Shown: positions 7,931 through 41,373, counted from the stretch's first letter. The stretch: DNA of 64,000 nt from Acidobacteriota bacterium (GCA_003223555.1 QHVM01000023.1:1912-65911), one strand, 5' to 3'. Notes: generated from the letters alone by a model not told the origin. A program made the numbers and translations.

Positions 7931-8802
7931 GCGACGCGACACGACGCCGGCTCGGCGACTACGTGGCCCTCGTCCTGCTGGAGCTGGCCAAGCTCGGCCG
8001 CCGGCCGCTCCGCTCGGCCTCGGGAGCGGATGTGAAGCGGTTCTACGAGGGCTTCTTCGAGGAGAAGGACCAGGAGGCCTACCGGCAGGACCCGCGCATG
8101 GTCCAGCGCCGGGAGACGATCGCCTCGGCCCTCGCCGGCCGCCTGCCTCCCGGGGCGCGACTGCTCGACGTGGGCTGTGGGCTGGGGGACGTGCTGGCCG
8201 GCTTACCCGGACCTGTCCGCCTCTACGGCACCGACCTCGCCGAGAGCAGCCTGCGCTCGGTGCGGAGCCGGCTCGGCGAACAGGCCCGAGTGGCTCGCGC
8301 CGCGGCGGATCGGATCCCCTTCGCCTCCGGCAGCCTCGACGCCTGCCTTTGCCTGGAGGTCCTGGAGCACCTCGAGGACGACGCTGCGGCGGCCCGAGAG
8401 CTGGCCCGCGTCCTCCGGCCCGGCGGGTGGCTGGTGGCCGCCGTTCCCTATACCTACTACTGGCCGCAGTACAAGCGGCTCATGGGCCACTTCCGCCACT
8501 ACACCCGGGAGTCCTTCGCCGCCCTGCTCGCGCGGGCCGGGTTCGCGGTGGAGGCCTACCTCCCCAACTACCCGCGCTGGCACCAGTCCTTCACCCGGCG
8601 CTACGCCGGCGTGCGCGTCCAGGCCTTCCTCTTCGGGCGGCTCTGGAGCACCACCTCGCCCTACGCCTACCGCTGGCCGTGGCGCCGCATCGGCGCCCTG
8701 CAGGCGGCCAGCCGCCGTTTGGAGGCGCTCCACGCCCGCGACCGCGCGCTCGACTACGCCGCGCTGCCGACCAGCACGTTCGTGCTCGCGCGGCGGACAT
8801 GA
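7927..8802 (+). CDS. class I SAM-dependent methyltransferase (Methyltransf_11-like)
   Basis: LLDVGCGLGD ... LRPGGWLV motifs; ATGA overlap with the upstream gene. Confidence 0.75.
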   Translation: MSDATRRRLGDYVALVLLELAKLGRRPLRSASGADVKRFYEGFFEEKDQEAYRQDPRMVQRRETIASALAGRLPPGARLLDVGCGLGDVLAGLPGPVRLYGTDLAESSLRSVRSRLGEQARVARAAADRIPFASGSLDACLCLEVLEHLEDDAAAARELARVLRPGGWLVAAVPYTYYWPQYKRLMGHFRHYTRESFAALLARAGFAVEAYLPNYPRWHQSFTRRYAGVRVQAFLFGRLWSTTSPYAYRWPWRRIGALQAASRRLEALHARDRALDYAALPTSTFVLARRT

Positions 8803-9901: not shown

Positions 9902-10846
9902 TCACCGCCGCTCCAGCCAAATCGAGGAGGGGAAATGATGGTGGGGATCGAAGCGCGCGTCGCGGAGGCCGTCGGTGAAGGAGGCCGGCACGTAATCCGG
10001 GAAGGCCTCCTTGAGCGCCTCGGGGCGCGCATGGTGGAGGTGGCTCAGGCAGAAGAGGATGCGCGTGCGGCGGTTCTCGATGAGGAACGCCTGGAGGAAG
10101 GCGGTCTCGTTCGAGTGGAAGAACGACTCGAGGGCGTTGGTCTGGTAGGTGTAGGGCATGTAGATGTCGTGGAAGTGGACGAGCACGCCGGGGCCCAGCC
10201 GGGGGAGCACCTCGAGGAGCAGGAACTCCGTGTCGCTCCCCGTCTTGACGACGTGGCTCGAATCGATGAACAAGATGTCCGCCGGCCCCAGGGTGGCGAA
10301 CTCGCCTGGGCCCACGCTCTGCACCGGAAGGTCCAACAGCTCCACCGCGGAGCCGCGGGCGGCCAGCTCCCGCAGCGGCCGGGACGGCGCAGGCTCGACG
10401 CAGGTGATGCGGCAGGCTCGTCCGCTCTCCCGCTGGTTCGCCTCCGCCGCCCGATGAGCGCAGAAGGTGGAGACACCGCTGCCGACCTCCAGGATCCGGG
10501 CCGGCTTGTAGTGACGGACCACCGCGTGCAGGGCCTGCGCCTCGACGAAGCCGAAGCCGGGGCCGTACCCGTCCCTGACGCCGCGCAGGTAGTTCCCGTT
10601 GTCCCGGTACTCCTCGCGCAAGGGCAGGCAGATGCGCCGCAGGTTCCGGACCTGCTCCTCGAGGTCGACCTCGATCCCGGCGAGCGCGGAAGGCCGCGCC
10701 CATCGCTCCCGGGTCCGGTCCAGCTCCAGGACGTCCGGCACGGGCGAGTAATAGTGGACGGGCAGGACGTGGACGCCGAGCCGCGCCGCCTGGCGGTGGA
10801 CGAGGAAGAACAGGCGCTTCAGCAGGTTCTTGACCGCTCGGCGCAT
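9902..10846 (-). CDS. class I SAM-dependent methyltransferase (TylF/MycF-like O-methyltransferase)
   Basis: ILEVGSGVSTFCA ... ILFIDSSHVV motifs; real protein begins at MRRAVKNLLKRL, preceded by ~250 aa of spurious Pro/Arg/Gly-rich ORF. Confidence 0.7.
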   Translation of the reverse strand: MRRAVKNLLKRLFFLVHRQAARLGVHVLPVHYYSPVPDVLELDRTRERWARPSALAGIEVDLEEQVRNLRRICLPLREEYRDNGNYLRGVRDGYGPGFGFVEAQALHAVVRHYKPARILEVGSGVSTFCAHRAAEANQRESGRACRITCVEPAPSRPLRELAARGSAVELLDLPVQSVGPGEFATLGPADILFIDSSHVVKTGSDTEFLLLEVLPRLGPGVLVHFHDIYMPYTYQTNALESFFHSNETAFLQAFLIENRRTRILFCLSHLHHARPEALKEAFPDYVPASFTDGLRDARFDPHHHFPSSIWLERR

Positions 10847-12238: not shown

Positions 12239-13090
12239 TCACGGTCGCACCCGGCAGTAGACCTCGAACTCCGTGCCCAGCCCCGCGAGATCCATGGCGC
12301 GTGCGGGAGCCCAGGCCAGCGGGGCGAAGACGCGCGCCGCCGCGCGCGCCCAGGAGGATTCCCCCGCGACGTACTTGCGGAAGCCGCGGGCGAGCTGCTC
12401 CATCCCCAGGCCGGAGAAGCTCGTCCACGCGGTCACGGGGAGGTCCGCCCGCCGGAGCAGGCTCCACAGGCCGGGCTTGCTGAAGAGGGTCAGGTGCTGG
12501 GGCGGGTTGATCATCGGGAAGCGCCGGCCCAGGACGCGGGCGGGCACGCCGCTGAGGCTGGGGGTCGAGAAGGCCACGACGCCCTGCGGCCGCACGAAGG
12601 CCTGCATGCGGACGAGCTCGGGTCCCGGCTCGGGAAGGTGCTCGAGCACTTCCCAGAGCACGACCGCATCGTAGCGAACCGGGGGAACAGGCATCTGCTG
12701 GATCCAGCACCGGTGGACCCGATGGCCCTTCGCCTCGGCGACCGCGGCCGCCGGGCCCGGTTCCACGCCCTCGGCCTCGAGCCCCTGCTCCCGGAGCGCG
12801 TCGAGGAACTCGCCGGCCCCGCAGCCCACCTCCAGGATCCGCCGCGCCCCCAGGCCGGCCAGCGTCCGGGCCCGATGGCGGGCCCGGCGGACGGGGAGCT
12901 CTCCGAGAAGCTCGTCCGGGCCGGCGTCCGGCTCGAGAGCATACATCCCGGCCAGCAGCGCTTCGTCGGGCTTCGGATCGACGAAGAGCGTCCGGCAGTC
13001 TGGGCAGCGGACCATCCAGAAGCCGTCGACGTCGAAGGCCCTCCGGCCGCGGCGGCCTTGGCAGGCCGGGCAGGCGCGGCACTCGGTCAC
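12239..13090 (-). CDS. class I SAM-dependent methyltransferase with N-terminal zinc ribbon
   Basis: CRACPAC...VRCPDCRTLF zinc ribbon, then ILEVGCGAGEF...VVLWEVLEHL; GTG start in a GTGA overlap. Confidence 0.7.
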   Translation of the reverse strand: MTECRACPACQGRRGRRAFDVDGFWMVRCPDCRTLFVDPKPDEALLAGMYALEPDAGPDELLGELPVRRARHRARTLAGLGARRILEVGCGAGEFLDALREQGLEAEGVEPGPAAAVAEAKGHRVHRCWIQQMPVPPVRYDAVVLWEVLEHLPEPGPELVRMQAFVRPQGVVAFSTPSLSGVPARVLGRRFPMINPPQHLTLFSKPGLWSLLRRADLPVTAWTSFSGLGMEQLARGFRKYVAGESSWARAAARVFAPLAWAPARAMDLAGLGTEFEVYCRVRP

Positions 13091-14262
13091 GGGGCTCCTC
13101 CCCCGACCAGCCCGCGGTAGGCGGCGGCCAGCTCGCCCGCCGCTCGCTCCCAGGAGAAACGGCTGGCCAGGCGCGCGCACCCGGCCGCATAGGCCTCCCG
13201 CGGGACGGCCAGGACCTCGCCGATCCGGGCGGCCACGGAGCGCGTGTCGAGCCCGGCCACCGCGCCGGCGCCGGCCGCCTCCACTTCGGAATGGAGCGCC
13301 ACGCCGCGGGAGACCACCACCGGCGTCCCCGCCGCCGCCGCCTCGAGCACGACGACGCCGAAGTTCTCATCGAAGGATGGAAGCGCGAGGCAGCGCGCCC
13401 CGGCGAGGAGGCGTCCCTTCGTTTCTCCCGTCACGAGCCCCGTGAAGTGCACCGCATCGGCGATGCCGAAGCGCCGGGCCGCTTCGACCAGCGGCTGCTG
13501 CATGCCTTCGTCGGGGCCCGCGAGGACAAGCTGCAGGCCGGGGCGGTCGCGCACGAGCTCGGCGAAGGCGGAGAGGAGCAGGTCGAGGCCCTTCTTGCGG
13601 TGCAGACGCCCGAGGAAGAGAACGTAGAGCCGGGGAGGCTCGAACCTCCGCGCCGGGGCATCGTCGACGTGGTTCGACCGCGCTCCGGAGGGCTCCTCCG
13701 CCTCGACGCCAAGCGGGATCACCCGCGTCCGGGCGCGCGGCTGGATGCGCCGGACGTCCTCGGCCTCGGCCTCCGAGGTGCAGTGGACGAAGGCGGCCGA
13801 GCGCAGCAGCCGCCTCACGATCAGGAGGAAGGGCCGCTTCAACGAGGATCCCTGGGCGAGACACCACGGGGCGAAGACGCCGCACGGCCGCATCACGTAG
13901 GGACGCTCGAGCACCAGACGCGCGGCATCGCTGGTGGCCGTGACGAAGGTGAAGATGCCGTGGCTGTGGACGACGTCGAACTCGTCACGCCGGCGCCACA
14001 CCGCGGCGGTCAGCTCGGGAGCGACCAGGCGGCGCCGGAGCGGCGCCAGGGCCGGCGCGCGGAAGTAGGTCACGCGCACTCCCGCCTCCTCGACCATGTG
14101 GGTCGGCCCGGAGCCGTCGGTCTCGGCGTCGCCGACGGTGAAGACCGACACCTCGAAGCCGGGCTGGCGGGCCAGGGCCCGGGCCAGGGGCAGCATGGAC
14201 ACCGAGGGCCCGCCGAACCGGTGCTGTAGCGAGGCCAGGACGTGGAGGATGCGGACCGTCAC
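13087..14262 (-). CDS. GT4 family glycosyltransferase
   Basis: VRILHVLASL... ; LFLGRLHRKKGLDLL...ALPSFDENFGVVVLEAAAAGTPVV (Glycos_transf_1); GTG start in a GTGA overlap with the asnB stop; ~490 aa of upstream ORF is Pro/Arg/Gly junk. Confidence 0.75.
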   Translation of the reverse strand: MTVRILHVLASLQHRFGGPSVSMLPLARALARQPGFEVSVFTVGDAETDGSGPTHMVEEAGVRVTYFRAPALAPLRRRLVAPELTAAVWRRRDEFDVVHSHGIFTFVTATSDAARLVLERPYVMRPCGVFAPWCLAQGSSLKRPFLLIVRRLLRSAAFVHCTSEAEAEDVRRIQPRARTRVIPLGVEAEEPSGARSNHVDDAPARRFEPPRLYVLFLGRLHRKKGLDLLLSAFAELVRDRPGLQLVLAGPDEGMQQPLVEAARRFGIADAVHFTGLVTGETKGRLLAGARCLALPSFDENFGVVVLEAAAAGTPVVVSRGVALHSEVEAAGAGAVAGLDTRSVAARIGEVLAVPREAYAAGCARLASRFSWERAAGELAAAYRGLVGGGAP

Positions 14263-16138: not shown

Positions 16139-18118
16139 TCAGTTGGTTCTTCGCAAGCCGCGGGAGCCGTCGCGGCGGGCCGGGATGACGACGAGCTGGT
16201 CCCACGATTCCAGGGCCGCGGCCAGGGTCCAACCGCCCTCCTGTACGAGCCGCTGTCCGCGCCACCCCATCAGGGGAAGGTTGCGCTGCAGGGACAGGGT
16301 CCGCTCGAGCGCTTCGGCGACGGCTGGCGGCGACGCGTCCCGCAGCACGAACCCGGTGACGCCGTCCTGGACCAGGTCGGCGGCCGCTCCCACCCAGGCC
16401 GGAGCGATGACGGGACGCCGCGACGAGAGCGCCTCGTTGATCACCAGCCCCCATGGCTCCCGGCGCGACGGTACCGCCACGACGTCGGCGGCTGCGTAGA
16501 GCGCCGGGGTCTGGTCGCTGGGCCGCTCGCCGAGGAATCTCGTGCTCGAGCCGATGCCGAGCCTCGCCGCCCGCCGCTCCAGTCCAGGCCGGCCGGCGCC
16601 CTCTCCCACGATCAGGCAGCGCATGCGAGCCCGAAGGGGCGGAGCGAGCAGGGCCAGGCCCTCGAGGAGCAGGTCCACGCCTTTGGACTCCACGAGCCGA
16701 CCGACGTAGAGGACGACCAGATCGGCGTTGCCGGCCAGCTCCCGGCGCGCGGTCTCGCGCAGGCTCTCTGCCCGCCAGAAGGGCTCGGGGTCGTGGGGGT
16801 ACGGCAAGCGCAGCAGCGGCGGGAGGCTCTGCCGGCCGCAGCACCACTCGTAGAACCTCCGGTTCTGCGTTCCGACATAGAGCAGACGCGTCATGCCCCG
16901 CAGGTAGGGTCGCATCGTAGCCCGCACGAGCCAGCGCCGCAGCCTTCCCCCCCGCTGGACGTCCTCCATGTTCATGTCGGACCAGTAGCAGACGCTTCGG
17001 CCGGTGACCCGCGCCCACAGGCAGGCCACGAGAACCGGGCGAGGGAAGTGGCCGGCGGCGATCAGCGTCGCCGGGTCGGCCCGGCGCAGCGCGCGCAAGA
17101 GCTCCGTGGTCTGGCGCACGGCGCCGGCGGCGGAGAGGACGAGGCTGCGCCGCGGCAGGTCTCCCACCTCGTAACGGCGCGCGACACGCTCGACCGCGCT
17201 GGGGGGCGTATAGAAGAAGGCGACGGCGGGCCCGTGCTTCTGCTCGATCCGGCGGTGCAGCGCCTTCATGTAGTGTGACGGATGGCCGCCCACCCAGGCC
17301 GCCGCCACGGGCCCCGGCTGTCTCGCCTCCTCGTCGCGTCGCCGCCGACCAACGAGCCTCACGACCCGCCAGACCGGGAAGCGCACGAGGCGGTCGAAGG
17401 CCGAAGGCTCGCGCCCGACGATCTTCCGGAAGATCCGCCGCACGTCGCCCGGATAGATCTTCTCGAGCCGGCCGCTCCCCGAGATGGAGCCGGGATGGAG
17501 GCGGAAGGCCCCCAGGGCCTCGGGCAGATGGCGGAAGCGCGCTCCGGAGAGGGCCATCTCCGCGAGCAGCTCGCCGTCCCAGCAGGTCCGGTTCTCCTCG
17601 CGGAAGCCGCCCGCCCGCTCGAAGGCGGAGCGGCGGAAGAAGGTCGCCTGCTGGAACACGAGGCAGGCTCCGAAGGCGAAGCGGCGCAGGCTCCAGGGGT
17701 CGCTGAAGATCGGACGGATGACGCGCTCGGTGGCGTCGACGAGGATGCCGTCGCCGTAGACGACGTCGACGGCGGGATCGCCGGCGAAGACCTCCATCAC
17801 CCGGGCTACCGCCCCCGGGAGCAGGAAGTCGTCCGCGTTGACGTAGCCGCAGATCTCACCGCTCGTCCGGGCGAAGCCCTGGTTGAGGGCCGCCGCGGGG
17901 CCGCCGTCGGGACCGGAGGACCAGCGATGAAGGCGGCTTTCGTGCCTCCGGATGACGCCGAGGGTCTCGTCCGTCGAGCCGCCGTCCACGATGACGTACT
18001 CGATGCGCGGATAGTCCTGGTCGAGGACGCTGCGCAGCGCGCGCTCGAGGAAGGCGCCCTGGTTCAGGCAGGCGGTCACGATGGAGACGGTCGGTCGGGG
18101 CGGGCCGGGCACTGACAT
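16139..18118 (-). CDS. bifunctional GT2 (N-terminal) - GT4 (C-terminal) glycosyltransferase fusion
   Basis: VSIVTACLNQGAFLERALRSVLDQDYP...EYVIVDGGSTD (GT2), then LYVGRLVESKGVDLLLE...VPSRREPWGLVINEAL (GT4). Confidence 0.75.
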   Translation of the reverse strand: MSVPGPPRPTVSIVTACLNQGAFLERALRSVLDQDYPRIEYVIVDGGSTDETLGVIRRHESRLHRWSSGPDGGPAAALNQGFARTSGEICGYVNADDFLLPGAVARVMEVFAGDPAVDVVYGDGILVDATERVIRPIFSDPWSLRRFAFGACLVFQQATFFRRSAFERAGGFREENRTCWDGELLAEMALSGARFRHLPEALGAFRLHPGSISGSGRLEKIYPGDVRRIFRKIVGREPSAFDRLVRFPVWRVVRLVGRRRRDEEARQPGPVAAAWVGGHPSHYMKALHRRIEQKHGPAVAFFYTPPSAVERVARRYEVGDLPRRSLVLSAAGAVRQTTELLRALRRADPATLIAAGHFPRPVLVACLWARVTGRSVCYWSDMNMEDVQRGGRLRRWLVRATMRPYLRGMTRLLYVGTQNRRFYEWCCGRQSLPPLLRLPYPHDPEPFWRAESLRETARRELAGNADLVVLYVGRLVESKGVDLLLEGLALLAPPLRARMRCLIVGEGAGRPGLERRAARLGIGSSTRFLGERPSDQTPALYAAADVVAVPSRREPWGLVINEALSSRRPVIAPAWVGAAADLVQDGVTGFVLRDASPPAVAEALERTLSLQRNLPLMGWRGQRLVQEGGWTLAAALESWDQLVVIPARRDGSRGLRRTN

Positions 18119-18134: not shown

Positions 18135-19217
18135 TCAGCGATGGATGAAGCTCAGCGCGATCTTCACGACCGTGTCGCTGACGTTCTCGACCAGGTACTC
18201 GCGGGGGGGCGACCATGCTCCGCGCAGGGCCAGCGCCGTCTGCAGGCAGCGAAGCACCGTCTCGGGCTCGGCGCCGCTGAGGATGTTGCTGCCGCACTCG
18301 ATGGTCTCCGGCCGCTCCGTCACGTCGCGCAGGGTGACCGTCGGTATGCCGAAGATCGCGCACTCCTCCTGCACGGTGCCGCTGTCGGTGAGCACGGCCA
18401 GGGCGTTGCGCTCCAGGGTCACGAAGTCGAAGAACCCGAAGGGAGGCGCGTAGCGCACCGTGTCCGAGCCCGCGGCCAGCCCCAGGGCCGCCATCTGGTC
18501 GCGGGTGTGGGGATGGGTGCTGACGATGACGGGGGCCCCGAGCTCGCCGGGCAGCCGGCCGAGGACGTGGTGGAACGCGCGCAGGCGCTCCGGCACGTCC
18601 ACGTTCTCCGCCCGATGCAAGGTGACCAGGAAGTAACGGCCCTTCTCGAGCCCGAGCTGCGCGAGCGCGGTCGAGCCGTCGATGCGGGTCTGGTAGCGGC
18701 GGATCACCTCGAGGATGGGGTTCCCGGTCACGTAGACCCGCTCCCCGGCGAACCCCTCGCGCAGCAGGTTCTGGCGGCTTCGCTCCGTGTAGGGCATGAG
18801 CACGTCGCTGCACGAATCGATCATGCGCCGGTTGATCTCCTCCGGCACGCGGTCGTCGTAGCACCGGTTGCCCGCCTCCATGTGGAGCACCGGGATGCCC
18901 ATCCGCTTGGCCATGATCGCGGCCAGGCCGCTGTTGGTGTCGCCCAGCACCAGGAAGCGGTCCGGGCGCTCGGCCCGGAGGACCCGCTCCGCCTCGGGCA
19001 GGATGCGGCCGATCTGCTCTCCGAAGCTGCCCCGCGCTCCCAGGTGATGGTCGGGTGGGCGCAGCCCCAGGTCGCGGAAGAAGACGTCGCTCAGGCCGGG
19101 GTCGTAGTTCTGCCCCGTGTGGACGAGGACGTGCCGGCAACGGCCATCGAGCTTCCCGATGATGACGCTGAGGCGGATCAGCTCGGGCCGGGTGCCGAGG
19201 AGGGTCAGGACCTTCAA
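18135..19217 (-). CDS. wecB: UDP-N-acetylglucosamine 2-epimerase (non-hydrolysing) family (WecB/WbvD-like)
   Basis: KVLTLLGTRPELIRL...HTGQNYD...LVLGDTNS...HMEAGNR... full-length; TTG start in a TTGA overlap. Confidence 0.85.
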   Translation of the reverse strand: MKVLTLLGTRPELIRLSVIIGKLDGRCRHVLVHTGQNYDPGLSDVFFRDLGLRPPDHHLGARGSFGEQIGRILPEAERVLRAERPDRFLVLGDTNSGLAAIMAKRMGIPVLHMEAGNRCYDDRVPEEINRRMIDSCSDVLMPYTERSRQNLLREGFAGERVYVTGNPILEVIRRYQTRIDGSTALAQLGLEKGRYFLVTLHRAENVDVPERLRAFHHVLGRLPGELGAPVIVSTHPHTRDQMAALGLAAGSDTVRYAPPFGFFDFVTLERNALAVLTDSGTVQEECAIFGIPTVTLRDVTERPETIECGSNILSGAEPETVLRCLQTALALRGAWSPPREYLVENVSDTVVKIALSFIHR

Positions 19218-20293
19218 CGCAGGAACTCGCCCTCCTCCCGCGCGCCCTGCTCCGGCATGAGGGAATGGCGCTCGAGGAGGGTCCGGATCTCGTCCGGGGT
19301 CATCAGCGAATCGGCGGAGCTGTACTCCTTCTCGAGCCGCGGGCCGCTCACGCTCTCCGCCTGCAGCTCGGGTTGGATGGGCTGGATCGCGTAGTAGTCG
19401 CCGAGGTCCACCGTCCGCGCGGCCTCCTCCTCGGAGACGAGGATCTCGTGGATCTTCTCTCCGGGGCGGATCCCGGTGCGCACGATCTCGATCGTCCGGC
19501 GGCCGATGAGCGCATTCGCCACGTCCACGATCCGGGCGGCGGGGATCTTGGGGACGTAGGTCTCGCCGGCCCGGGCCCGGGCGATCGCGGCCGCGATCAG
19601 CTCCACCGCCGTGCCCAGGGACAGGAGGAACCGGGTCATCCCGTCGGTGGTGATGGTGACGGGGCCGCCGTTGCGGATCTGCTCGTGGAACAGCGGGATG
19701 ACCGACCCCCGGGAGGCGAGGACGTTCCCGTAGCGGACGCAGATGAAGCGGGTGGCGGGGACGGTCAAGTTGGCGCCGACGAAGATCCGCTCCTGCAGCG
19801 CCTTCGTCATCCCCATGACGTTCACCGCCTTGCACGCCTTGTCCGTCGACACGCCCACCACCGTCCCCACCTCGACCCGGCCGTCGCGCACCGCGCGGAC
19901 GATGTTCTCCGCTCCGACCACGTTGGTCTGCACCGCCTCGAACGGGAAGTACTCGCAGGAGGGGACCTGCTTCAGCGCGGCGGCGTTGACGACGATGTCG
20001 GCTCCGTCCATGGCCGAGCAGACCGCATGGTAGTCCCGCACGTCGCCGATCCTGAACTCCACCAGCCGCTCGAAGTCGTGATAGATGACCTCGTCGGTGG
20101 CCTTCGTCTTGTGCAGGTACTCCAGCCGCATGAAGTGCTGCTTGGCCTCGTCCCGCGAGAAGATCCGGATCTTGCCCGGGCGATCGTCCGGGCGGGCGAG
20201 CAGCCAGCGGGTGAGCACCTTGCCGAGCGACCCCGTCCCCCCGGTGATGAGGATCGTCTTTCCCTTCAGCGTCGCCGGTCCGCCCGCCGTCAT
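19214..20293 (-). CDS. UDP-GlcNAc 4,6-dehydratase (Polysacc_synt_2; CapD/PseB/FnlA/WbvB-like)
   Basis: KTILITGGTGSLGK...DVRDYHAV...VVNAAALKQVP...MGMTKAL...; ATGA overlaps at both ends. Confidence 0.85.
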   Translation of the reverse strand: MTAGGPATLKGKTILITGGTGSLGKVLTRWLLARPDDRPGKIRIFSRDEAKQHFMRLEYLHKTKATDEVIYHDFERLVEFRIGDVRDYHAVCSAMDGADIVVNAAALKQVPSCEYFPFEAVQTNVVGAENIVRAVRDGRVEVGTVVGVSTDKACKAVNVMGMTKALQERIFVGANLTVPATRFICVRYGNVLASRGSVIPLFHEQIRNGGPVTITTDGMTRFLLSLGTAVELIAAAIARARAGETYVPKIPAARIVDVANALIGRRTIEIVRTGIRPGEKIHEILVSEEEAARTVDLGDYYAIQPIQPELQAESVSGPRLEKEYSSADSLMTPDEIRTLLERHSLMPEQGAREEGEFLR

Positions 20294-21186
20294 CCCTGGA
20301 GCCCCCGTTCCCGGTAACAGGGCGAGGACTCGAAGTGGGCGTGCATGAGTCCGATCAGCTCCGCCCAGGCGGGGGGCTCGTAACCGGTCGCTTCACGAAA
20401 GCGCGACGAGTCGAGGGTCCGGTCGATGCGGCAGCCGTCATCCGGCACGATCTCGATCCCGTGGCCATATTGGCCGGCAATCAGCCGGAGCAGATCGCAC
20501 TTCGACACGGGGCTCGACGAGACGTGGTAGACGCCGCGCATGTCGATCCGCGCCAGGACGTGCTCGTCGATGATGCGCGCCAGCTCCACGCTGGGAAACC
20601 CCGAGAAGATCGCCCCGGTGAAGCCCCGGACCGGCCCGGGCTGGGAGAGGAACCACTCTACGAGGCCGTACCGGTCGCGCAGCTCGTGACCGATGAAAGA
20701 CGTCCGGAGCGTGATGCCGTCAGCGGCCGCGAGCTCACCCAGGACCTTCGTGCGTCCGTAGAGATCGACGGCATCGGGAATATCGTTCTCAGTATACTTC
20801 CCGGCCGCGCCGTCGAAGACGCAGTCGGTGCTGACGTGCACCAGGCGGCCCCCCACCGCCGCGCACAGGCGAGCCAGCTGGTGGGGAAACAGCGCATTGA
20901 GGCTGATCGCGGCCACCGGGTCGGCCGCCGAAGGCCTCTGCTTGACGAGGCCGATGCAGTTGACCACGACGTCGGGCCGGAAGGACTCGAGGACCGCGGC
21001 CACGGTCTGGATGCGCTCGGCATCGACTCCGGGGACGACCTGCTCGCGGAGAGCACGGGGAAGCAGACGGTCCAACCCGTCCTCGGCGCGGGCCGTCGCC
21101 CGGACGTCGTGACGTCCACCCTGGTGGAGGCGCTCGAGTAGGACGTGTCCGAGCATTCCGGTCGCGCCCAGGACGAGGACCCTCAT
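20290..21186 (-). CDS. RmlD-like SDR reductase (dTDP-4-dehydrorhamnose reductase family; WbvR-like)
   Basis: MRVLVLGATGMLGHVL...VVNCIGLVK...YGRTKVLGE; starts at the ATG at 21186 (ATGA overlap); upstream part of the ORF is junk. Confidence 0.75.
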   Translation of the reverse strand: MRVLVLGATGMLGHVLLERLHQGGRHDVRATARAEDGLDRLLPRALREQVVPGVDAERIQTVAAVLESFRPDVVVNCIGLVKQRPSAADPVAAISLNALFPHQLARLCAAVGGRLVHVSTDCVFDGAAGKYTENDIPDAVDLYGRTKVLGELAAADGITLRTSFIGHELRDRYGLVEWFLSQPGPVRGFTGAIFSGFPSVELARIIDEHVLARIDMRGVYHVSSSPVSKCDLLRLIAGQYGHGIEIVPDDGCRIDRTLDSSRFREATGYEPPAWAELIGLMHAHFESSPCYRERGLQG

Positions 21187-21863
21187 CCCCGGCGCCTTTC
21201 CGCGGCGGCATAGAGGCGGCCGACCACGCGCTGGAACTGCCGCAAGACGAAGGACGCCATCCGACCCGGACGGCCGGGATCCGCCACGGTCTTGATGGCC
21301 CAGAGGGCCCCGAAGGCCTCTTCGAGGGGACGCCCCATGTTGTCCGCGATATGGAAGGCCCGGGCGGCGTAGATCTGCCAGGACGAGTCGAAGTCTTCGG
21401 GTCCCCACCCCGACCGGTGCTCCTGCCAACGTCCTCCGTCGAGCCCCCAGGCGTCCTTGCCGTCCGGATGATGCTGGGGCAGGAAGCCGAGGGGCGTGAA
21501 GATCACGACCTGGCGTCTCACCAGCGGCTCGGTGGCCGCGAGCAGCCGGCGTGCCTCCTCCTTCTCCAGGTGCTCGATGACGTCCACCAGGAAAACCGTG
21601 TCCACGGACCGCGGAGGGAACAGCTCGAGGGCCTGGGCCCACGTCGCCTTCAGCACGACGAAGGTCCGGTCCTGGCGGCAGCGGACCTTGCCCTGGAGGA
21701 CCTCGACGTACTGCTCGAAGGGCTCGCAGCAGATGTGCACGAGCGGGCGCAGGTACGGCTGGGGCATGATCCCGCAGCCGATGTCCAGGACGACCGGCAC
21801 CGGCTCGAGGGCCTTGCGCAAGGCGGGCAGCATCTCCTCGGCGGTCAGCCAGGTCAGGCCCAC
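21183..21863 (-). CDS. class I SAM-dependent methyltransferase
   Basis: VLDIGCGIMP ... VDTVFLVDVIEHL; lies immediately downstream of wzt. Confidence 0.6.
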   Translation of the reverse strand: MGLTWLTAEEMLPALRKALEPVPVVLDIGCGIMPQPYLRPLVHICCEPFEQYVEVLQGKVRCRQDRTFVVLKATWAQALELFPPRSVDTVFLVDVIEHLEKEEARRLLAATEPLVRRQVVIFTPLGFLPQHHPDGKDAWGLDGGRWQEHRSGWGPEDFDSSWQIYAARAFHIADNMGRPLEEAFGALWAIKTVADPGRPGRMASFVLRQFQRVVGRLYAAAERRRG

Positions 21864-21897
21864 GCGGGTTCCCGACGGCGGCCGGGGCCGCGAGCCC

Positions 21898-23169
21898 TCA
21901 CCGGGACACCGTCCGCCACTCGAGCAGGGGCCTGACCACGCCGCCGAAGCGGCCGAAGTAGTCCTTCCGCACCGCGGGGCTGTCGAGCACCTCGATCCTC
22001 AGGACGTCGCGGGTCATGGTCCCGTCCACGAACCCCTTGCCGAAGAGGTTGACGGCCAGGCTGAACCAGCCGTCGTTCAGGAAGTTCGCGGGGACGCGGC
22101 AGGAGCTACGGTACTCCCCGGACGGCATCGGACGACCGTACCAGCACGATTCGTGGTTGTTGATGGAGGAGAACACGATGTTCTGCTCGTCGTCGAAGAG
22201 GATCGCCGTCAGTCCCACGTAGGTCCCGGGAGTCGTGACCCGGAAGTCGATGTCCACGTCGAAAGCGGTGTCGGTATGGACCTGGGACAGCGCTTCTCCG
22301 TCCACGCCGCGGAGGGTGATCCGGGAGAGGATCGCGGAGGCGTTCCGGGGGGCCGCCCGCTCATCCGGCCATTCGCGGGACAGGACGGCGGTGCCGGCCT
22401 CGCCCAAGTACCGGGAGACGACCTCGCTGGCCGACCCCGCGGCGACCAGCGAGCCGCCCCGGAGAAGCAGCGCCCGGTCGCACAGCGTCCGCACCGCGCT
22501 CATGTTGTGGCTCACGAACAGCACGGTCCGCCCTTCGCGCCCCACCGATTCCATCCGACCCAGGCACTTCCGCTGGAACGCCGCGTCCCCGACCGCCAGG
22601 ACCTCGTCCACCACCAGGATGTCCGGCTCCAGGTGCGCGGCCACCGCGAAGGCCAGCCGCACGTACATGCCCGAGGAGTACCTCTTGACCGGCGTGTCCA
22701 GGAAGCGCTCGACCTCCGCGAAGGCGACGATCTCGTCGAAGCGTCTCTTGATGTCCGCCCGCCGCATGCCCAGGATGGCGCCGTTCAAGAAGATGTTCTC
22801 CCGGCCCGTCAGCTCCGGATGAAAGCCGGTCCCCACCTCGAGCAGGCTGGCCAGGCGGCCGCGCAGGGTCAGCCGCCCTTCCGAGGGCTCCGTGATGCGG
22901 CTCATGAGCTTGAGCAGCGTGGACTTGCCGGCTCCGTTGGGCCCGATGATGCCGATGCGCTCGCCCGGCGCGACGTGGAACGAGACCTTCTCGAGGGCGT
23001 AGAACTCCTCGCGTCCCGCCATCCCCCGGTCGAGCCTCCGCCCCCGCAGCCTCGCCGCCAGCCGCCGCGCGCGCACGGCCAGATCGTCCCGCAGCGTGAG
23101 GTAGCGCTCGGGATGCTGGTGGCGCAGGACGTATTTCTTAGAGAGCTTCTCGGCGATGATCGCGGACAT
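21898..23169 (-). CDS. wzt: polysaccharide ABC transporter ATP-binding protein (Wzt-like) with C-terminal glycan-binding extension
   Basis: GIIGPNGAGKSTLLK (Walker A), YSSGMYVRLAFA (signature), ILVVDEVL (Walker B), plus a ~180-aa C-terminal beta-rich domain; start taken at MSAIIAEKL. Confidence 0.85.
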   Translation of the reverse strand: MSAIIAEKLSKKYVLRHQHPERYLTLRDDLAVRARRLAARLRGRRLDRGMAGREEFYALEKVSFHVAPGERIGIIGPNGAGKSTLLKLMSRITEPSEGRLTLRGRLASLLEVGTGFHPELTGRENIFLNGAILGMRRADIKRRFDEIVAFAEVERFLDTPVKRYSSGMYVRLAFAVAAHLEPDILVVDEVLAVGDAAFQRKCLGRMESVGREGRTVLFVSHNMSAVRTLCDRALLLRGGSLVAAGSASEVVSRYLGEAGTAVLSREWPDERAAPRNASAILSRITLRGVDGEALSQVHTDTAFDVDIDFRVTTPGTYVGLTAILFDDEQNIVFSSINNHESCWYGRPMPSGEYRSSCRVPANFLNDGWFSLAVNLFGKGFVDGTMTRDVLRIEVLDSPAVRKDYFGRFGGVVRPLLEWRTVSR

Positions 23170-23229
23170 GGAATCGGGGCGGGCACGGCAACGCCGAGCG
23201 GGGGGCATCTTGCGGTCGCCCGGCCGCGA

Positions 23230-24099
23230 TCAGATCACGTCCGCGAAGCTCCGCTCGGCCTTCCGGAAATACCATAGCCCGGAGATCACCAGGAGGGCCA
23301 CCACCGTCGCCGCCAGGAAGAGGCCGCTCCAGTATAGCGTAAACGCCCGGCCGAGGATCGCCCACCGGAAGCCGTCGATCACGCCCACCAGCGGGTTGAG
23401 CGAGTAGAGCAGGCGCCAGCGCGCCGGGACCACGTCGCTCGAGAACCCGACCGGCGAGACGTAGAGCCCGAACTGCACCACGAAGGGAACGATGTACGTG
23501 AAGTCGCGGTACTTCACCGTCAGGGCCGAGAACCAGAGTCCGCCGCCCACCGCGGTCGCCGCGGCCAGCAGCACGAAAAGGGGCAGGGCGGCCAGCCGCA
23601 CGGTCGGCAGCACTCCGTACCAGGCCATCAGGCCGGCGAGCAGCGCCAGCGACATCAGGAAGTCGACGAAGCTCACCACGACGGCGCCGATGGGTATCAC
23701 CATCCGGGGGAAGAACACCTTCGAGACCATGGACGCGTTGGCGAGCAGGCTGGCGCTGCTGCCGGCCAGGGCGCTGGCGAAGAACTGCCAGGGCAGTAGG
23801 GCGGCGAAGACGAGGACCGGGTACGGCACCCCGTTCGACGGCAGCCTGGCGATGCGGCCGAAGACGACGGTGAAGACGAGCATGGTGGCCAGCGGGCGCA
23901 CGAGGGCCCATGCCACGCCGATGGCGGCCTGCTTGTACTGGACCGTGACGTCCCGCCAGGCCAGGAAGTAGAACAGCTCCCGGTAGCGCCAGAGATCTCT
24001 CAGGTACTGGCCGGCCGGTCGACCGGCCTCGATCACGAGCAGCTCTGTGGGCGCCTCCGGCGAGGCGGTCCGGCCGGTCGCCTCGGCGGGCGCCGCCAC
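23230..24099 (-). CDS. wzm: ABC-2 type polysaccharide exporter permease (Wzm-like)
   Basis: ...YLRDLWRYRELFYFLAWRDVTVQYKQAAIGVAWALVRPL... plus 6 TM segments; GTG start at 24099 (an alternative GTG lies at 24036). Confidence 0.75.
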   Translation of the reverse strand: MAAPAEATGRTASPEAPTELLVIEAGRPAGQYLRDLWRYRELFYFLAWRDVTVQYKQAAIGVAWALVRPLATMLVFTVVFGRIARLPSNGVPYPVLVFAALLPWQFFASALAGSSASLLANASMVSKVFFPRMVIPIGAVVVSFVDFLMSLALLAGLMAWYGVLPTVRLAALPLFVLLAAATAVGGGLWFSALTVKYRDFTYIVPFVVQFGLYVSPVGFSSDVVPARWRLLYSLNPLVGVIDGFRWAILGRAFTLYWSGLFLAATVVALLVISGLWYFRKAERSFADVI

Positions 24100-24101
24100 G
24101 G

Positions 24102-25127
24102 CTAGCTCACCGAGGGCGGCGGAGGGGCCGGATCGCTCACGTCGATCGCCGAGGCTCGTCCGCCGGCGAGCCGGGCGAGCCGCTGCGCCACCCGCAACAG
24201 GCGGTCGAGGAGCGGCGAGTTGAGGCGGCGCGCCCGGACCTGGAGCGCTCGCGCCCATCCGGCATCCGGCACGGCGAGGGCGTTGCGAAAGGCCTCGTCG
24301 GCATAGGTGTGCGCGCCGAAGCTCCGGTAGAGGTCGCCCATCCAGATCCAGGCGTCGGCCGGCCCGGTTCCGCCGTCCGCCAGGCCCGGGAAGAAGCCCC
24401 GCACCGACAGGTGGTCGTGGACGACGTCCATGAGGAGGCGAATGTCCCGGCGGACCTGTCCGGCCTCGGTCTCCGTGCCGCGCGCCGGATGGACCCGCTT
24501 GAATGTGACCGCCCGCGGGCTCAGGAGGAAGGGGAATGCCGCCGACAGGCGCAGCGTCATCTCCACGTCCTGGGTCGTCCGGTTGGCCTCGTTGAACGGG
24601 CCCACGCGCGCGAAGCAGGACCGGTGGATGGTCATCGCGCACATGTCGACGCCCCCCAGACGCAGCGCGTCCCGCGGGTTCGTGACCCGGTCGACCGGGT
24701 AGACCGGCTCCCGGATGACGTTTCCCGCGCCGTCGATGACCTTGATCGGGCAGAACAACACGCGGGCCTCGGGCCGTTCCGCCGCGGCGATCATGTCCTG
24801 CTCGATGCGGTCGGCAGCGAACCGGTCGTCGTGGCTCAGCCAGGCGAACCACTCGCCGGTCATCTCCCGCAGCCCGTGGTTCAGCGCGGTGGACACGCCG
24901 CCGTTGGGCTTCCGGAAGCGGCGGACCCGGTCGCCGTACGACCGGATGATGGCGTCGGTCCGGCCTCCGTCGTCGGATCCGTCGTCGACGACGATGACCT
25001 CGGTGCGCCCGTAGGTCTGCTGCAGCGCGCTGTCGACCGCCTCGCGCAGGTAGTTCGAGCCGTTGTACACCGGGATCACGATCGACACGACCGGCGATCG
25101 CGACGAGGCGCGGGCGCCGCCCGTCAC
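24102..25127 (-). CDS. family 2 glycosyltransferase
   Basis: PVVSIVIPVYNGSNYLREAVDSALQQTY...EVIVVDDGSDDG; GTG start in a GTGA overlap. Confidence 0.75.
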   Translation of the reverse strand: MTGGARASSRSPVVSIVIPVYNGSNYLREAVDSALQQTYGRTEVIVVDDGSDDGGRTDAIIRSYGDRVRRFRKPNGGVSTALNHGLREMTGEWFAWLSHDDRFAADRIEQDMIAAAERPEARVLFCPIKVIDGAGNVIREPVYPVDRVTNPRDALRLGGVDMCAMTIHRSCFARVGPFNEANRTTQDVEMTLRLSAAFPFLLSPRAVTFKRVHPARGTETEAGQVRRDIRLLMDVVHDHLSVRGFFPGLADGGTGPADAWIWMGDLYRSFGAHTYADEAFRNALAVPDAGWARALQVRARRLNSPLLDRLLRVAQRLARLAGGRASAIDVSDPAPPPPSVS

Positions 25128-25780
25128 TTCACTCCCTGGGCGTAGAGTGACTCGTAGCGGCGCTCCGGCTGATCCAGGGCGGGGTCGAAGGGCCGCAGGC
25201 GCACCTCCCTGAGGCCGATCTGCCCGAGCAGGGCCAGGATGCTCTCCTCGTCGAACATGTGGCGGTGCTCGCCGTCCATGTAGAACATGTAGTTCACGTA
25301 GTCGATCGGCGTACGGAGCGACAGCCCCGTGTCGTAGGTGCAGTAGGTCCGGGCGTCGAACGTCTCCGGGTGGGCATAGGCCTCGAGGTAGATCCTCGCG
25401 TTGGGGACGGCCAGGCTGAAGACCCCGTTCGGCTTGAGCGTCCGGTAGCAATCCCGCAGGAGCGCCACGAGGTCGGGGTACCGGAAGTGCTCCAGGACGT
25501 GCTCGGAATAGATGAGGTCGAGCGACTCGTCGGGGAAGGGCAGGCCCAGGCGCAGATCATAGGGGAAGTCGGTGCGGAAGCTGAGGTCGGAGGTGATGAA
25601 GCCCTCCTTGGTCTTGACCCCTCCGGGGCCGATCTCCAGCCGGTTGACCCGGCGCTTGTCGAAGAAAAGCCGGGCCTTGACGAGCCCGACCAGGGAGCAG
25701 AGGTGGGTCCGGGCTTCCGCCCGAACGAGGGCGCAGCTCTCGCGAAGCCGGCCGGGATACCGGGAACGCATCTGGACCGT
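25124..25780 (-). CDS. class I SAM-dependent methyltransferase; first gene of the long operon
   Basis: ...LEIGPGG...LIYSEHVLEHF...LKPNGVFSLAVP; begins at MRSRYPGRL; the preceding ~525 aa of ORF is antisense junk of asnB2. Confidence 0.65.
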   Translation of the reverse strand, partial: TVQMRSRYPGRLRESCALVRAEARTHLCSLVGLVKARLFFDKRRVNRLEIGPGGVKTKEGFITSDLSFRTDFPYDLRLGLPFPDESLDLIYSEHVLEHFRYPDLVALLRDCYRTLKPNGVFSLAVPNARIYLEAYAHPETFDARTYCTYDTGLSLRTPIDYVNYMFYMDGEHRHMFDEESILALLGQIGLREVRLRPFDPALDQPERRYESLYAQGVK

Positions 25781-25879
25781 TCCTGCCGCCGCTGGCGCCG
25801 GCACGATTGTCCTAGAATAGCGTTTCGTCGTCCAACGCGGGAACGGCGCGGATGCCGTGCTCGCCCGGGGCCCCTGCGC

Positions 25880-40107: not shown

Positions 40108-40131
40108 GCCGTCTCCGGGCGCGCCGCCGCC

Positions 40132-41343: not shown

Positions 41344-41373
41344 GGATTCAGGTGGGTGGGTCCGGCCAGGGGC

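What the first reader, a model, noticed from the sequence alone, without database searches (positions are those of the whole stretch)
21183..23169. Wzt with C-terminal glycan-binding domain next to a methyltransferase: candidate terminal-methylation chain-length control; six SAM-MTs in the locus
The Wzt-like ATPase has a ~180-aa C-terminal beta-rich extension, as in Wzt proteins that recognise a non-reducing-end cap. A SAM methyltransferase (21183-21863) lies immediately downstream, and five more SAM MTs are present (2658-3290, 7927-8802, 9902-10846, 12239-13090, 25124-25780). This is the architecture of ABC-dependent O-polysaccharide systems in which a terminal methyl (or phosphomethyl) cap made by a WbdD-like enzyme is read by the Wzt C-domain. 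It also predicts a heavily O-methylated glycan.
Basis: partly seen in the sequence, partly recalled or inferred. Interest (0 to 1): 0.55.

Follow-up and report, generated by a model that had tools for sequence, protein, structure and literature searches.

The report
Polysaccharide exporter with cap-reader and methyltransferase
An Acidobacteria sugar-polymer export pump has a chain-end-reading domain and sits next to a small uncharacterised methyltransferase, and this pairing recurs across many phyla, pointing to a widespread methyl-cap export checkpoint that lacks the usual length-measuring ruler.

Summary
On the minus strand, Wzt (21898-23208) is an ABC ATPase with a ~170-aa C-terminal domain. 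Its AlphaFold model (pLDDT 83.7) matches only Wzt carbohydrate-binding domains at the top of a PDB fold search. A 226-aa class I SAM methyltransferase (21183-21863) starts 34 nt downstream. Four of the five other claimed methyltransferases are supported; 2658-3290 is not.

The methyltransferase belongs to an unnamed, highly conserved family (334 clusters at E<=1e-30).
- In 79 genomes, 36 carry it directly downstream of wzt, and all 36 Wzt have a C-terminal extension.
- Of 11 metagenome loci with a close relative of this binding domain, 10 have this methyltransferase next to wzt. The eleventh has a different methyltransferase there.
- Five loci with distant relatives have none.
- 57 of 79 loci also carry WbvB/WbvR/WbvD-like genes, and some genomes fuse the methyltransferase to a GT2 like 24102-25127.

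The enzyme is not WbdD-like: it has no kinase and no coiled-coil ruler. My best model is a ruler-less cap-and-export cassette, possibly capping with an O-methylated 6-deoxy-L-HexNAc. The cap chemistry and any chain-length effect are untested. I rate it a new variant of a known kind.

The parts
21898..23208 (-). wzt: ABC-transporter ATPase, 436 aa (alternative start at 23169 gives 423 aa). The nucleotide-binding domain is about residues 1-265 (nt 22414-23208).
   Evidence: Pfam ABC_tran E 1e-21. Best PDB match is full-length A. aeolicus Wzt, E 1e-62. Walker A, signature and Walker B motifs are readable in the translation.
21901..22413 (-). C-terminal carbohydrate-binding domain of Wzt (residues ~266-436), a beta sandwich. 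Conserved motifs are SSINNHE..WYG..P..G.Y.S.C.(I/V)P.N and a terminal GVVRPxLxW strand.
   Evidence: AlphaFold2 model pLDDT 83.7. The top 17 Foldseek PDB hits are all Wzt carbohydrate-binding domains. Pfam Wzt_C is weak, E 0.018. Subfamily alignments are A1, A3 and A4.
21183..21863 (-). Small class I SAM methyltransferase (226 aa) of an unnamed conserved family. The core is residues 1-195, followed by a lone C-terminal helix at 201-225. This is the candidate cap-forming enzyme.
   Evidence: 605 homologues at 50-81% identity, mostly with no Pfam domain. 334 clusters at E<=1e-30. AlphaFold2 pLDDT 93.4 with a class I methyltransferase fold. No NCBIfam model. Synteny with wzt is shown. NCBI names it 'hypothetical protein' (PYQ16777.1).
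23230..24099 (-). wzm: ABC-2 permease partner of Wzt.
   Evidence: Pfam ABC2_membrane E 1e-16. Conserved upstream of wzt in related loci.
24102..25127 (-). GT2 glycosyltransferase (341 aa). Its subfamily travels with the methyltransferase and is fused directly after it in several genomes. This is the candidate transferase of the capped residue.
   Evidence: Pfam Glycos_transf_2 E 5e-29. Relatives at E<1e-35 occur in 43 of 79 methyltransferase loci. It is the module right after the methyltransferase in fusions in L028, L029, L050, L051, L054 and L057.
20290..21186 (-). RmlD-like 4-reductase (298 aa; WbvR-like, single domain). Its ATG overlaps the methyltransferase stop codon (ATGA).
   Evidence: Pfam RmlD_sub_bind. 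PDB hits are RmlD proteins only, with no CapF. The overlap is read.
19214..20293 (-). UDP-GlcNAc 4,6-dehydratase/5-epimerase (359 aa; CapE/FnlA/WbvB/PseB-like). It overlaps the reductase gene by 4 nt.
   Evidence: Pfam Polysacc_synt_2 E 3e-87. Best PDB matches are 4j2o and CapE. NCBIfam PseB and FnlA both score below their cutoffs.
18135..19217 (-). Non-hydrolysing UDP-HexNAc 2-epimerase (360 aa; WbvD/FnlC/CapG-like). It overlaps the dehydratase gene by 4 nt.
   Evidence: Pfam Epimerase_2 E 2e-89. NCBIfam wecB scores above its cutoff.
16139..18118 (-). Bifunctional GT2+GT4 glycosyltransferase (659 aa). It is a candidate polymerase or adaptor enzyme of the same operon.
   Evidence: Pfam Glycos_transf_2 at 12-131 and Glycos_transf_1 at 463-611. 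GT2-GT4 proteins follow the methyltransferase in L002 and are fused to it in L028 and L029.
25124..25804 (-). Second SAM methyltransferase, of a different family. It overlaps the start of the GT2 gene at 24102-25127 by 4 nt.
   Evidence: Pfam Methyltransf_11/23, E ~2e-10, C-terminal half only. It has no relatives in the comparison loci.
12239..13180 (-). SAM methyltransferase (Methyltransf_23) in the same minus-strand gene run.
9902..10846 (-). SAM methyltransferase (Methyltransf_24) in the same minus-strand gene run.
   Evidence: Relatives are present in 6 comparison loci.
7927..8802 (+). SAM methyltransferase (Methyltransf_11) on the opposite strand.

Best explanation
This is an ABC-transporter-dependent polysaccharide locus in an Acidobacteriota genome. 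It is probably an O-antigen locus.

Shown:
- Wzm/Wzt is the exporter.
- Wzt carries a C-terminal carbohydrate-binding domain of the kind that reads a non-reducing-end cap.
- The next gene encodes a SAM methyltransferase of a conserved, unnamed family.
- That family is genetically linked to this binding-domain subfamily across many phyla.

Inferred mechanism:
1. The WbvB/WbvR/WbvD-like enzymes (18135-21186) make a UDP-2-acetamido-2,6-dideoxy-L-hexose, of the L-RhaNAc/L-QuiNAc type.
2. The GT2 at 24102-25127 adds that sugar to the growing end of the lipid-linked chain.
3. The methyltransferase methylates it, which blocks further elongation.
4. The Wzt binding domain binds the methylated end and licenses export.

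No coiled-coil ruler is present. Chain length would therefore be set by competition between capping and polymerisation, not by a molecular ruler.
For: - The binding-domain fold is confirmed. Its nearest solved relative binds 3-O-methyl sugars (8dky; PMC9445017).
- The methyltransferase fold and SAM motif are confirmed.
- Of 79 species genomes with the methyltransferase, 36 have it directly downstream of wzt on the same strand. All 36 of those Wzt have a 168-231 aa C-terminal extension. The three Wzt without an extension are all non-adjacent.
- In the reciprocal test, 10 of 11 metagenome loci with a binding domain >=41% identical have this methyltransferase right after wzt.
- The exception, L083, has another methyltransferase in that position. 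That enzyme is homologous to the partner domain fused in tandem with this family in P0152, P0162 and P0283.
- None of 5 loci with binding domains only 29-35% identical has the methyltransferase.
- 57 of 79 loci carry at least 2 of the 3 WbvB/R/D-like genes within 10 kb.
- In the window, ATGA overlaps chain the methyltransferase, reductase, dehydratase and epimerase genes.
- A GT2 like 24102-25127 is present in 43 of 79 loci. It is fused immediately after the methyltransferase in six multi-GT proteins. GT2-methyltransferase fusions also exist.
- The reductase is a single-domain RmlD type, not the two-domain CapF type. This matches the WbvB/R/D route to UDP-L-QuiNAc (PMC6765297).
Against: - No biochemical data exist for any family member. 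I found no paper describing a methylated RhaNAc, QuiNAc or FucNAc cap.
- 35 of 79 methyltransferase loci have no Wzt within 10 kb, and 3 have a Wzt without a binding domain. The enzyme therefore does not strictly depend on cap reading.
- Its link to the sugar genes (72%) is stronger than its link to wzt (56% within the locus, 46% adjacent). This fits methylation of an internal residue or of a nucleotide sugar equally well.
- The window has four other methyltransferases that could make the cap.
- All characterised terminators carry a coiled coil, and this one does not.
- Whether the methyl acceptor is O, N or another atom is unknown.
- I could not compare the binding-domain pocket residues with those of 8dky.
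Confidence: 0.55

Rival explanations
1. The methyltransferase is a decoration or precursor enzyme. It methylates the 6-deoxy-L-HexNAc wherever that sugar occurs, in internal repeat-unit residues or at the nucleotide-sugar level. Its position next to wzt only reflects operon packing. The Wzt binding domain then reads something else.
For: - The methyltransferase co-occurs with the WbvB/R/D-like genes more often (57 of 79) than with wzt (44 of 79).
- In the window it is translationally coupled to the reductase by an ATGA overlap, but separated from wzt by 34 nt.
- It occurs with Wzt proteins that lack a binding domain (L039, L045, L082) and in loci with no Wzt within 10 kb.
- It is fused directly to a GT2 with no spacer.
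Against: - All 36 adjacent Wzt have a C-terminal extension.
- 10 of 11 close relatives of the binding domain keep this methyltransferase in the position after wzt. The eleventh replaces it with another methyltransferase, not with an unrelated gene.
- Distant relatives of the binding domain lack it, 0 of 5.
- This subfamily-specific co-inheritance is hard to explain by operon packing alone.
Confidence: 0.25
2. The cap read by the binding domain is the rare sugar itself, in the way beta-Kdo serves in Klebsiella O12 and O4. Alternatively it is a group made by another enzyme in the locus, such as one of the other four methyltransferases, an acetyltransferase or an AsnB-type amidotransferase. In this reading the methyltransferase at 21183-21863 is accessory.
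For: - L096 has a related binding domain plus the three sugar genes but no methyltransferase of this family.
- The window operon also encodes methyltransferases at 25124-25804, 12239-13180 and 9902-10846, a hexapeptide acetyltransferase and an asparagine-synthase-like enzyme; a second hexapeptide acetyltransferase and a second asparagine-synthase-like gene lie just outside it.
- Sugar-type caps are established for other systems (PMC11231755).
Against: - None of the other window methyltransferases has relatives in the comparison loci at a comparable frequency (0 to 6 loci).
- The 21183-21863 family is the constant partner of this binding-domain subfamily.
- L096's binding domain is only 29% identical, so it may read a different ligand.
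Confidence: 0.15
3. This is a WbdD-type system in the strict sense. A membrane-anchored terminator with a coiled-coil ruler sets a narrow modal chain length by methyl or methyl-phosphate capping.
For: - The gene order wzm-wzt-methyltransferase resembles wzm-wzt-wbdD (from my own knowledge).
- The methyltransferase domain of WbdD appears among the fold hits (4azt and 4uw0, ranks 21 and 38).
- A C-terminal amphipathic helix is possible (hydrophobic moment 0.76).
Against: - The protein is 226 aa with no kinase domain and no coiled coil.
- WbdD is no closer in fold than dozens of unrelated methyltransferases (TM ~0.5).
- No protein in the window combines a methyltransferase domain with a long coiled coil.
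- A crude heptad scan finds no coiled coil in the giant fusion proteins.
- In homologues, the amphipathic tail signal is no stronger than in the core helices.
Confidence: 0.05

Closest known systems
Aquifex aeolicus WzmWzt with its carbohydrate-binding domain that reads a 3-O-methyl-mannose/rhamnose cap (PDB 7k2t, 8dku, 8dky, 6o14; PMC9445017)
   Same: - It is the best sequence match for the full-length Wzt (E 1e-62) and the best fold match for the C-terminal domain.
- It is the same two-gene transporter, with a binding domain fused to the nucleotide-binding domain.
- The cap it reads is a methyl group.
   Different: - The binding domain here is only ~16% identical and fails the Pfam Wzt_C cutoff.
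- It belongs to its own subfamily, with conserved SSINNHE/WYG and GVVRPxLxW motifs.
- The likely capped sugar is a 6-deoxy-L-HexNAc rather than D-Man or D-Rha.
- Conservation of the pocket residues was not tested.
E. coli O9a/O8 and Klebsiella O3/O7 terminators (WbdD, ORF6-O7) and the E. coli O101 methyltransferase (PMC3482155, PMC11231755, PMC13168486)
   Same: - A SAM methyltransferase is encoded next to wzm-wzt.
- Non-reducing-end methylation is coupled to export by a Wzt that carries a binding domain.
   Different: - Those enzymes are large and carry a coiled-coil ruler. WbdD of O9a and ORF6-O7 also carry a kinase.
- The protein here is a ~195-aa bare methyltransferase core plus a short tail.
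- It has no sequence-level relation to them and no closer fold relation than to any other class I methyltransferase.
Vibrio cholerae O37 WbvB/WbvR/WbvD pathway to UDP-L-RhaNAc/UDP-L-QuiNAc, and the related FnlABC/CapEFG pathway to UDP-L-FucNAc
   Same: It uses the same three enzyme types in one block: a CapE/FnlA-like dehydratase, a reductase and a non-hydrolysing 2-epimerase.
   Different: - The reductase is a single-domain RmlD type (WbvR-like), not the two-domain CapF/FnlB type.
- The dehydratase scores below the NCBIfam cutoffs for both PseB and FnlA.
- The exact sugar product therefore remains unassigned.
Multi-module terminator-polymerase proteins (Klebsiella O12 WbbB; Geobacillus WsaE methyl-rhamnosyltransferase, the latter recalled from memory)
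   Same: In relatives (L011, L028, L029, L050, L051, L054, L057) the methyltransferase is the N-terminal module of 1,470-2,090-aa proteins. It is followed by GT2 and GT4 modules.
   Different: - In the window the modules are separate genes.
- I detected no coiled-coil spacer between the methyltransferase and the GT modules.

Membership tests
Wzt ABC ATPase with C-terminal carbohydrate-binding domain (cap-dependent O-polysaccharide exporters) | An ABC nucleotide-binding domain of the Wzt/TagH type, paired with an adjacent ABC-2 permease (Wzm). | tested here: met
   ABC_tran and ABC2_membrane hits. Best PDB match is A. aeolicus Wzt, E 1e-62.
Wzt ABC ATPase with C-terminal carbohydrate-binding domain (cap-dependent O-polysaccharide exporters) | A C-terminal beta-sandwich (jelly-roll) domain with the same fold as solved Wzt binding domains. 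| tested here: met
   Model pLDDT 83.7. The top 17 Foldseek hits are Wzt binding domains, with TM up to 0.74.
Wzt ABC ATPase with C-terminal carbohydrate-binding domain (cap-dependent O-polysaccharide exporters) | A Pfam PF14524 (Wzt_C) match above the gathering score. | tested here: not met
   15.4 bits against a cutoff of 30.4, E 0.018. Some close homologues do carry PF14524. This is a divergent subfamily, not a different fold.
Wzt ABC ATPase with C-terminal carbohydrate-binding domain (cap-dependent O-polysaccharide exporters) | The domain binds the non-reducing-end cap and is required for export. | not testable with these tools
   This needs binding assays or genetics.
WbdD-like chain terminators | A SAM-dependent methyltransferase domain. 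| tested here: met
   LDIGCG motif and a class I fold at pLDDT 93.4.
WbdD-like chain terminators | A coiled-coil molecular ruler. | tested here: not met
   The protein is 226 aa with a single C-terminal helix at 201-225. A crude heptad scan finds no coiled coil in fused relatives.
WbdD-like chain terminators | A kinase domain (O9a/O3/O7 type, making a methyl-phosphate cap). | tested here: not met
   No kinase domain appears in Pfam or NCBIfam, and the protein is too short to hold one.
WbdD-like chain terminators | Membrane association through a C-terminal amphipathic helix. | tested here: inconclusive
   The window tail has a hydrophobic moment of 0.76. Across homologues the tail signal (0.54) does not exceed that of the core helices (0.55).
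WbvB/WbvR/WbvD (UDP-L-RhaNAc/L-QuiNAc) pathway | A CapE/FnlA/WbvB-type UDP-GlcNAc 4,6-dehydratase/5-epimerase. | tested here: met
   Polysacc_synt_2 E 3e-87. PDB matches to 4j2o and CapE at E ~1e-65.
WbvB/WbvR/WbvD (UDP-L-RhaNAc/L-QuiNAc) pathway | A single-domain RmlD-like 4-reductase, rather than a CapF/FnlB with a cupin domain. | tested here: met
   298 aa with RmlD_sub_bind. PDB hits are RmlD proteins only. The WbvR architecture itself is recalled from memory.
WbvB/WbvR/WbvD (UDP-L-RhaNAc/L-QuiNAc) pathway | The product is UDP-L-RhaNAc or UDP-L-QuiNAc. | not testable with these tools
   This needs an enzyme assay. NCBIfam PseB and FnlA both score below their cutoffs.

The most novel reading that the evidence does not exclude
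The window carries one copy of a horizontally spread cap-and-export cassette that lacks a molecular ruler. The cassette comprises a GT2, a small unnamed methyltransferase, a Wzt with a matching binding-domain subfamily, and often WbvB/R/D-like sugar genes. It installs and reads a cap chemistry not yet described: an O-methylated 2-acetamido-2,6-dideoxy-L-hexose. It is present in Gram-negative bacteria, Gram-positive bacteria, candidate-phyla-radiation bacteria and at least one Methanobacterium contig. If true, export licensing by cap recognition would be far more widespread than the enterobacterial models suggest and would not need a coiled-coil terminator.
Probability: 0.35. Interest if true: 0.65.

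Novelty: new variant of a known kind. Interest (0 to 1): 0.5.

Why it matters
Cap-dependent export by Wzm/Wzt has been worked out in only a handful of systems: E. coli O8/O9a, Klebsiella O3/O4/O7/O12 and Aquifex. In every one of them the terminator carries a coiled-coil ruler.

This locus points to a conserved ~195-aa methyltransferase family that databases label 'hypothetical protein'. It is the constant neighbour of one Wzt binding-domain subfamily across many phyla. If it is the cap-forming enzyme, three things follow:
- It defines a simple two- or three-gene termination module without a ruler.
- It suggests a new cap sugar.
- It gives a genomic marker (this methyltransferase next to wzt) for predicting capped glycans in uncultured bacteria.

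Several cultured carriers make the idea directly testable: Geobacter argillaceus, Pseudomonas atacamensis, Vibrio makurazakiensis and Enterovibrio nigricans.

Tried and rejected
- Pfam on the whole Wzt missed the binding domain. Scanning the C-terminal part alone gave only E 0.018. The fold search settled the question.
- A word-indexed homologue search with the binding domain found only 12 proteins.
- An 18-sequence alignment of the binding domain (A3) was too diverse for the locus scan. A 7-sequence alignment (A4) worked.
- A PDB sequence search with the methyltransferase profile found nothing useful. The fold search gave only generic class I methyltransferases at TM ~0.5, so no substrate could be inferred from structure.
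- NCBIfam has no model for the methyltransferase. The nearest is a weak partial hit to MftM.
- The C-terminal amphipathic helix as a membrane anchor looks good in the window protein but is not distinctive across the family. I dropped it as evidence.
- My coiled-coil scan of the giant fusion proteins is a home-made heuristic. Its negative result is weak.
- Literature searches for methylated RhaNAc, QuiNAc or FucNAc caps found nothing. The 2019 Glycobiology survey of chain terminators and Wzt binding modules is not in the library. Prior mention of this family there cannot be excluded.
- 2658-3290 as a methyltransferase is not supported.
- I rejected the strict WbdD-like reading because there is no kinase and no coiled coil.


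Full report
**What is in the sequence**

The window is 70% G+C. Exact protein matches place it in an Acidobacteriota metagenome-assembled genome, where the methyltransferase is PYQ16777.1, 'hypothetical protein DMF80_03380'.

Codon-position G+C gene calling and Pfam show a long run of minus-strand genes from about 25804 down to 8842, in this order:
- methyltransferase, 25124-25804
- GT2, 24102-25127
- Wzm, 23230-24099
- Wzt, 21898-23208
- methyltransferase, 21183-21863
- RmlD-like reductase, 20290-21186
- CapE/FnlA-like dehydratase, 19214-20293
- non-hydrolysing 2-epimerase, 18135-19217
- GT2+GT4 bifunctional transferase, 16139-18118
- asparagine-synthase-like enzyme
- GT4
- methyltransferase, 12239-13180
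- hexapeptide acetyltransferase
- GT2
- methyltransferase, 9902-10846
- PhyH-type dioxygenase

The methyltransferase at 21183-21863 starts with GTG 34 nt after the wzt stop codon. Its own stop codon overlaps the reductase ATG as ATGA. The next two gene junctions also overlap by 4 nt.

**Checking the observation**

Wzt has the ABC motifs, and its best PDB sequence match is full-length A. aeolicus Wzt (E 1e-62). About 170 residues follow the nucleotide-binding domain.

Pfam Wzt_C scores only 15.4 bits against a cutoff of 30.4. However, an AlphaFold2 model built on 13 sequences has pLDDT 83.7 and eight beta strands. Its 17 best Foldseek matches in the PDB are all Wzt carbohydrate-binding domains:
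- A. aeolicus 6o14 and 8dky, the latter bound to 3-O-methyl-mannose
- E. coli O9a 2r5o
- Raoultella O12 5hno

That criterion is not met.

The methyltransferase scores below the Pfam cutoffs. It does have the LDIGCG SAM motif. Its model is very confident (pLDDT 93.4) and has a class I methyltransferase fold.

Of the five other claimed methyltransferases, four are supported. The ORF at 2658-3290 has no Pfam or PDB support.

**The methyltransferase family**

The word-indexed search found 605 homologues at 50-81% identity, nearly all without a Pfam domain or a name. An exhaustive profile search found 334 clusters (at 50% identity) with E<=1e-30, and 1,100 with E<=1e-10.

The ~195-residue core is strikingly conserved, with 33 invariant columns across 61 sequences. 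NCBIfam has no model for it, and no solved structure is related by sequence.

**Synteny, starting from the methyltransferase**

A scan of one genome per species returned 80 loci. By their record titles they come from Bacillota, Bacteroidota, several proteobacterial classes, Planctomycetota, Verrucomicrobiota, Chloroflexota, Actinomycetota, Acidobacteriota, Elusimicrobia, four candidate-phyla-radiation lineages and one Methanobacterium contig.

I annotated their open reading frames with phmmer, using the window proteins as queries. Among the 79 loci with a detectable methyltransferase ORF:

| Feature | Loci |
|---|---|
| Wzt within the fetched ~10 kb flanks | 44 |
| Wzt directly upstream on the same strand | 36 |
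| At least 2 of the 3 sugar-nucleotide genes | 57 |
| Both Wzt and the sugar genes | 30 |
| Neither (several are on short contigs) | 8 |

All 36 adjacent Wzt have a C-terminal extension of 168-231 aa. The only three Wzt without an extension (L039, L045, L082) are non-adjacent.

**Synteny, starting from the binding domain (reciprocal test)**

A scan of metagenome contigs with an alignment of close binding-domain relatives returned 14 loci.

Eleven have a binding domain at least 41% identical to the window's:
- Ten of them have this methyltransferase immediately downstream of wzt. In L090 only the first 42 residues are visible before the contig ends.
- The eleventh, L083, has a different SAM methyltransferase in that position. 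That enzyme is homologous (E 1e-17 to 1e-22) to the N-terminal domain fused in tandem with this family in P0152, P0162 and P0283.

Five loci have binding domains only 29-35% identical (L094-L098). None has the methyltransferase.

The association is therefore specific to this binding-domain subfamily. This is the strongest argument that the domain reads what the methyltransferase makes.

**Other linked genes**

Relatives of the GT2 at 24102-25127 (E<1e-35) occur in 43 of the 79 loci, often right after the 2-epimerase gene or right after the methyltransferase.

In seven genomes the methyltransferase is the N-terminal module of a 1,470-2,090-aa protein. In six of them the very next module, starting around residue 196-230, is most similar to this GT2. 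GT2-methyltransferase and GT4-methyltransferase fusions also exist.

These fusions tie the methyltransferase to glycan assembly on the lipid carrier. They suggest that this GT2 adds the residue that then gets methylated.

**Which sugar**

The dehydratase is closest to an A. baumannii UDP-GlcNAc 4,6-dehydratase/5-epimerase (4j2o) and to CapE. The reductase is a single-domain RmlD-type protein with no CapF-like match. The third enzyme is a non-hydrolysing 2-epimerase.

This matches the architecture of V. cholerae WbvB/WbvR/WbvD, which make UDP-L-QuiNAc (PMC6765297); from memory, this proceeds via UDP-L-RhaNAc. The architecture of WbvR itself is also from memory. The exact product here is not established.

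**Comparison with known systems**

The logic (cap, then reading by the binding domain, then export) is the known paradigm (PMC9445017, PMC3482155). The difference lies in the terminator.

Every characterised terminator carries a coiled-coil ruler: WbdD, Klebsiella O4 and O7, O12 WbbB, and the E. coli O101 methyltransferase (PMC11231755, PMC13168486). The protein here is a bare methyltransferase core plus a short helix. It has no kinase and no coiled coil. My crude heptad scan found no coiled coil in the fused relatives either.

WbdD's methyltransferase domain is no closer in fold than dozens of unrelated methyltransferases. The window enzyme therefore works like a terminator but is not a member of the WbdD family. 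Ruler-type modal length control is not predicted.

**Limits**

- The methyltransferase is linked more often to the sugar genes than to wzt, and it occurs in loci with no nearby Wzt. A role as a general decorating enzyme for 6-deoxy-L-HexNAc remains a serious rival (I give it about 0.25).
- The acceptor atom, the sugar identity, cap recognition and any chain-length effect are all inferences.
- I found no paper describing a methylated RhaNAc or QuiNAc cap. The main published survey of terminators and Wzt binding modules is not in the searchable library.

**Verdict**

The system is best described as a new variant of the cap-dependent ABC export system that lacks a ruler and is widely distributed. 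It is built around an uncharacterised methyltransferase family. I score interest at 0.5.

Noticed in passing
window 2658-3290 (-): This 210-aa ORF, claimed as a SAM methyltransferase, has coding-like codon usage but no Pfam, NCBIfam or PDB support. The only hit is E~2e-3 to the N-terminal SAM-binding part of KsgA/Erm. It has a motif-like stretch, 'VLVETGTWLGD'. Its function is unassigned.
   Followed up: partly
window 1112-2704 (+), 30602-32164 (-), 32191-34368 (-): The window also encodes a Wzy_C/O-antigen-ligase-like membrane protein, a WecA/WbpL-type GT4 initiating transferase, and a Wzz/GNVR tyrosine-kinase-type co-polymerase. Parts of a Wzy-dependent or capsule-type pathway therefore sit beside the ABC-dependent operon. 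Which glycan each system serves is unknown.
   Followed up: no
window 25880-27751 (+) and L040 15111-16985: The asparagine-synthase-like gene next to the operon has a hit at E=5e-242 in a Candidatus Magasanikiibacteriota genome, close to that genome's wzt-methyltransferase cassette. The similarity is unusually high between an Acidobacteriota and a candidate-phyla-radiation genome. It suggests horizontal transfer of a larger block.
   Followed up: no
L011, L028, L029, L050, L051, L054, L057 (methyltransferase at the N-terminus of 1,470-2,090-aa ORFs): In Pirellulales, Geobacter argillaceus, a Deltaproteobacteria genome and several Ignavibacteria-type genomes, the methyltransferase is fused to GT2, GT4 and in one case GT9 modules in a single giant protein. 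These loci have the sugar-nucleotide genes but no Wzt within 10 kb.
   Followed up: partly
P0152, P0162, P0283, P0199; L083 6497-7216: Tandem fusions exist in which a Methyltransf_25/11-type domain precedes this methyltransferase family (three methyltransferase domains in P0199). The partner family occupies the position after wzt in L083. This hints at doubly methylated caps.
   Followed up: partly
L037 (Methanobacterium sp. contig CAZDTW010000067.1): An archaeal contig carries Wzm, a Wzt with a 227-aa C-terminal extension, and the methyltransferase, in the bacterial order. This is either horizontal transfer into an archaeon or a binning error.
   Followed up: no
L002/L006 9114-9971 (Deltaproteobacteria bacterium IMCC39146): A sulfotransferase gene sits between wzt and the methyltransferase in this genome. 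The terminal modification there might include sulfate.
   Followed up: no
window 25124-25127 and 24099-24104: The methyltransferase at 25124-25804 overlaps the start of the GT2 at 24102-25127 by 4 nt (GTGA). That GT2 in turn abuts wzm. Two unrelated methyltransferases therefore flank the GT2-wzm-wzt block.
   Followed up: partly
window 36949-50211: Downstream lies a second large block of glycan genes on the minus strand. It includes several GT2 and GT4 genes, two SDR epimerase/dehydratases, and a GFO/IDH/MocA oxidoreductase with a hexapeptide acetyltransferase, a pair typical of 2,3-diacetamido-uronic acid synthesis.
   Followed up: no
L025 and L029 (Geobacter argillaceus ATCC BAA-1139, two scaffolds): This cultured strain has two copies of the methyltransferase. 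One sits in wzm-wzt-methyltransferase-GT2 without the sugar genes. The other is fused to GT2-GT4-GT9 next to the three sugar genes. It would be a convenient organism for testing the model.
   Followed up: no
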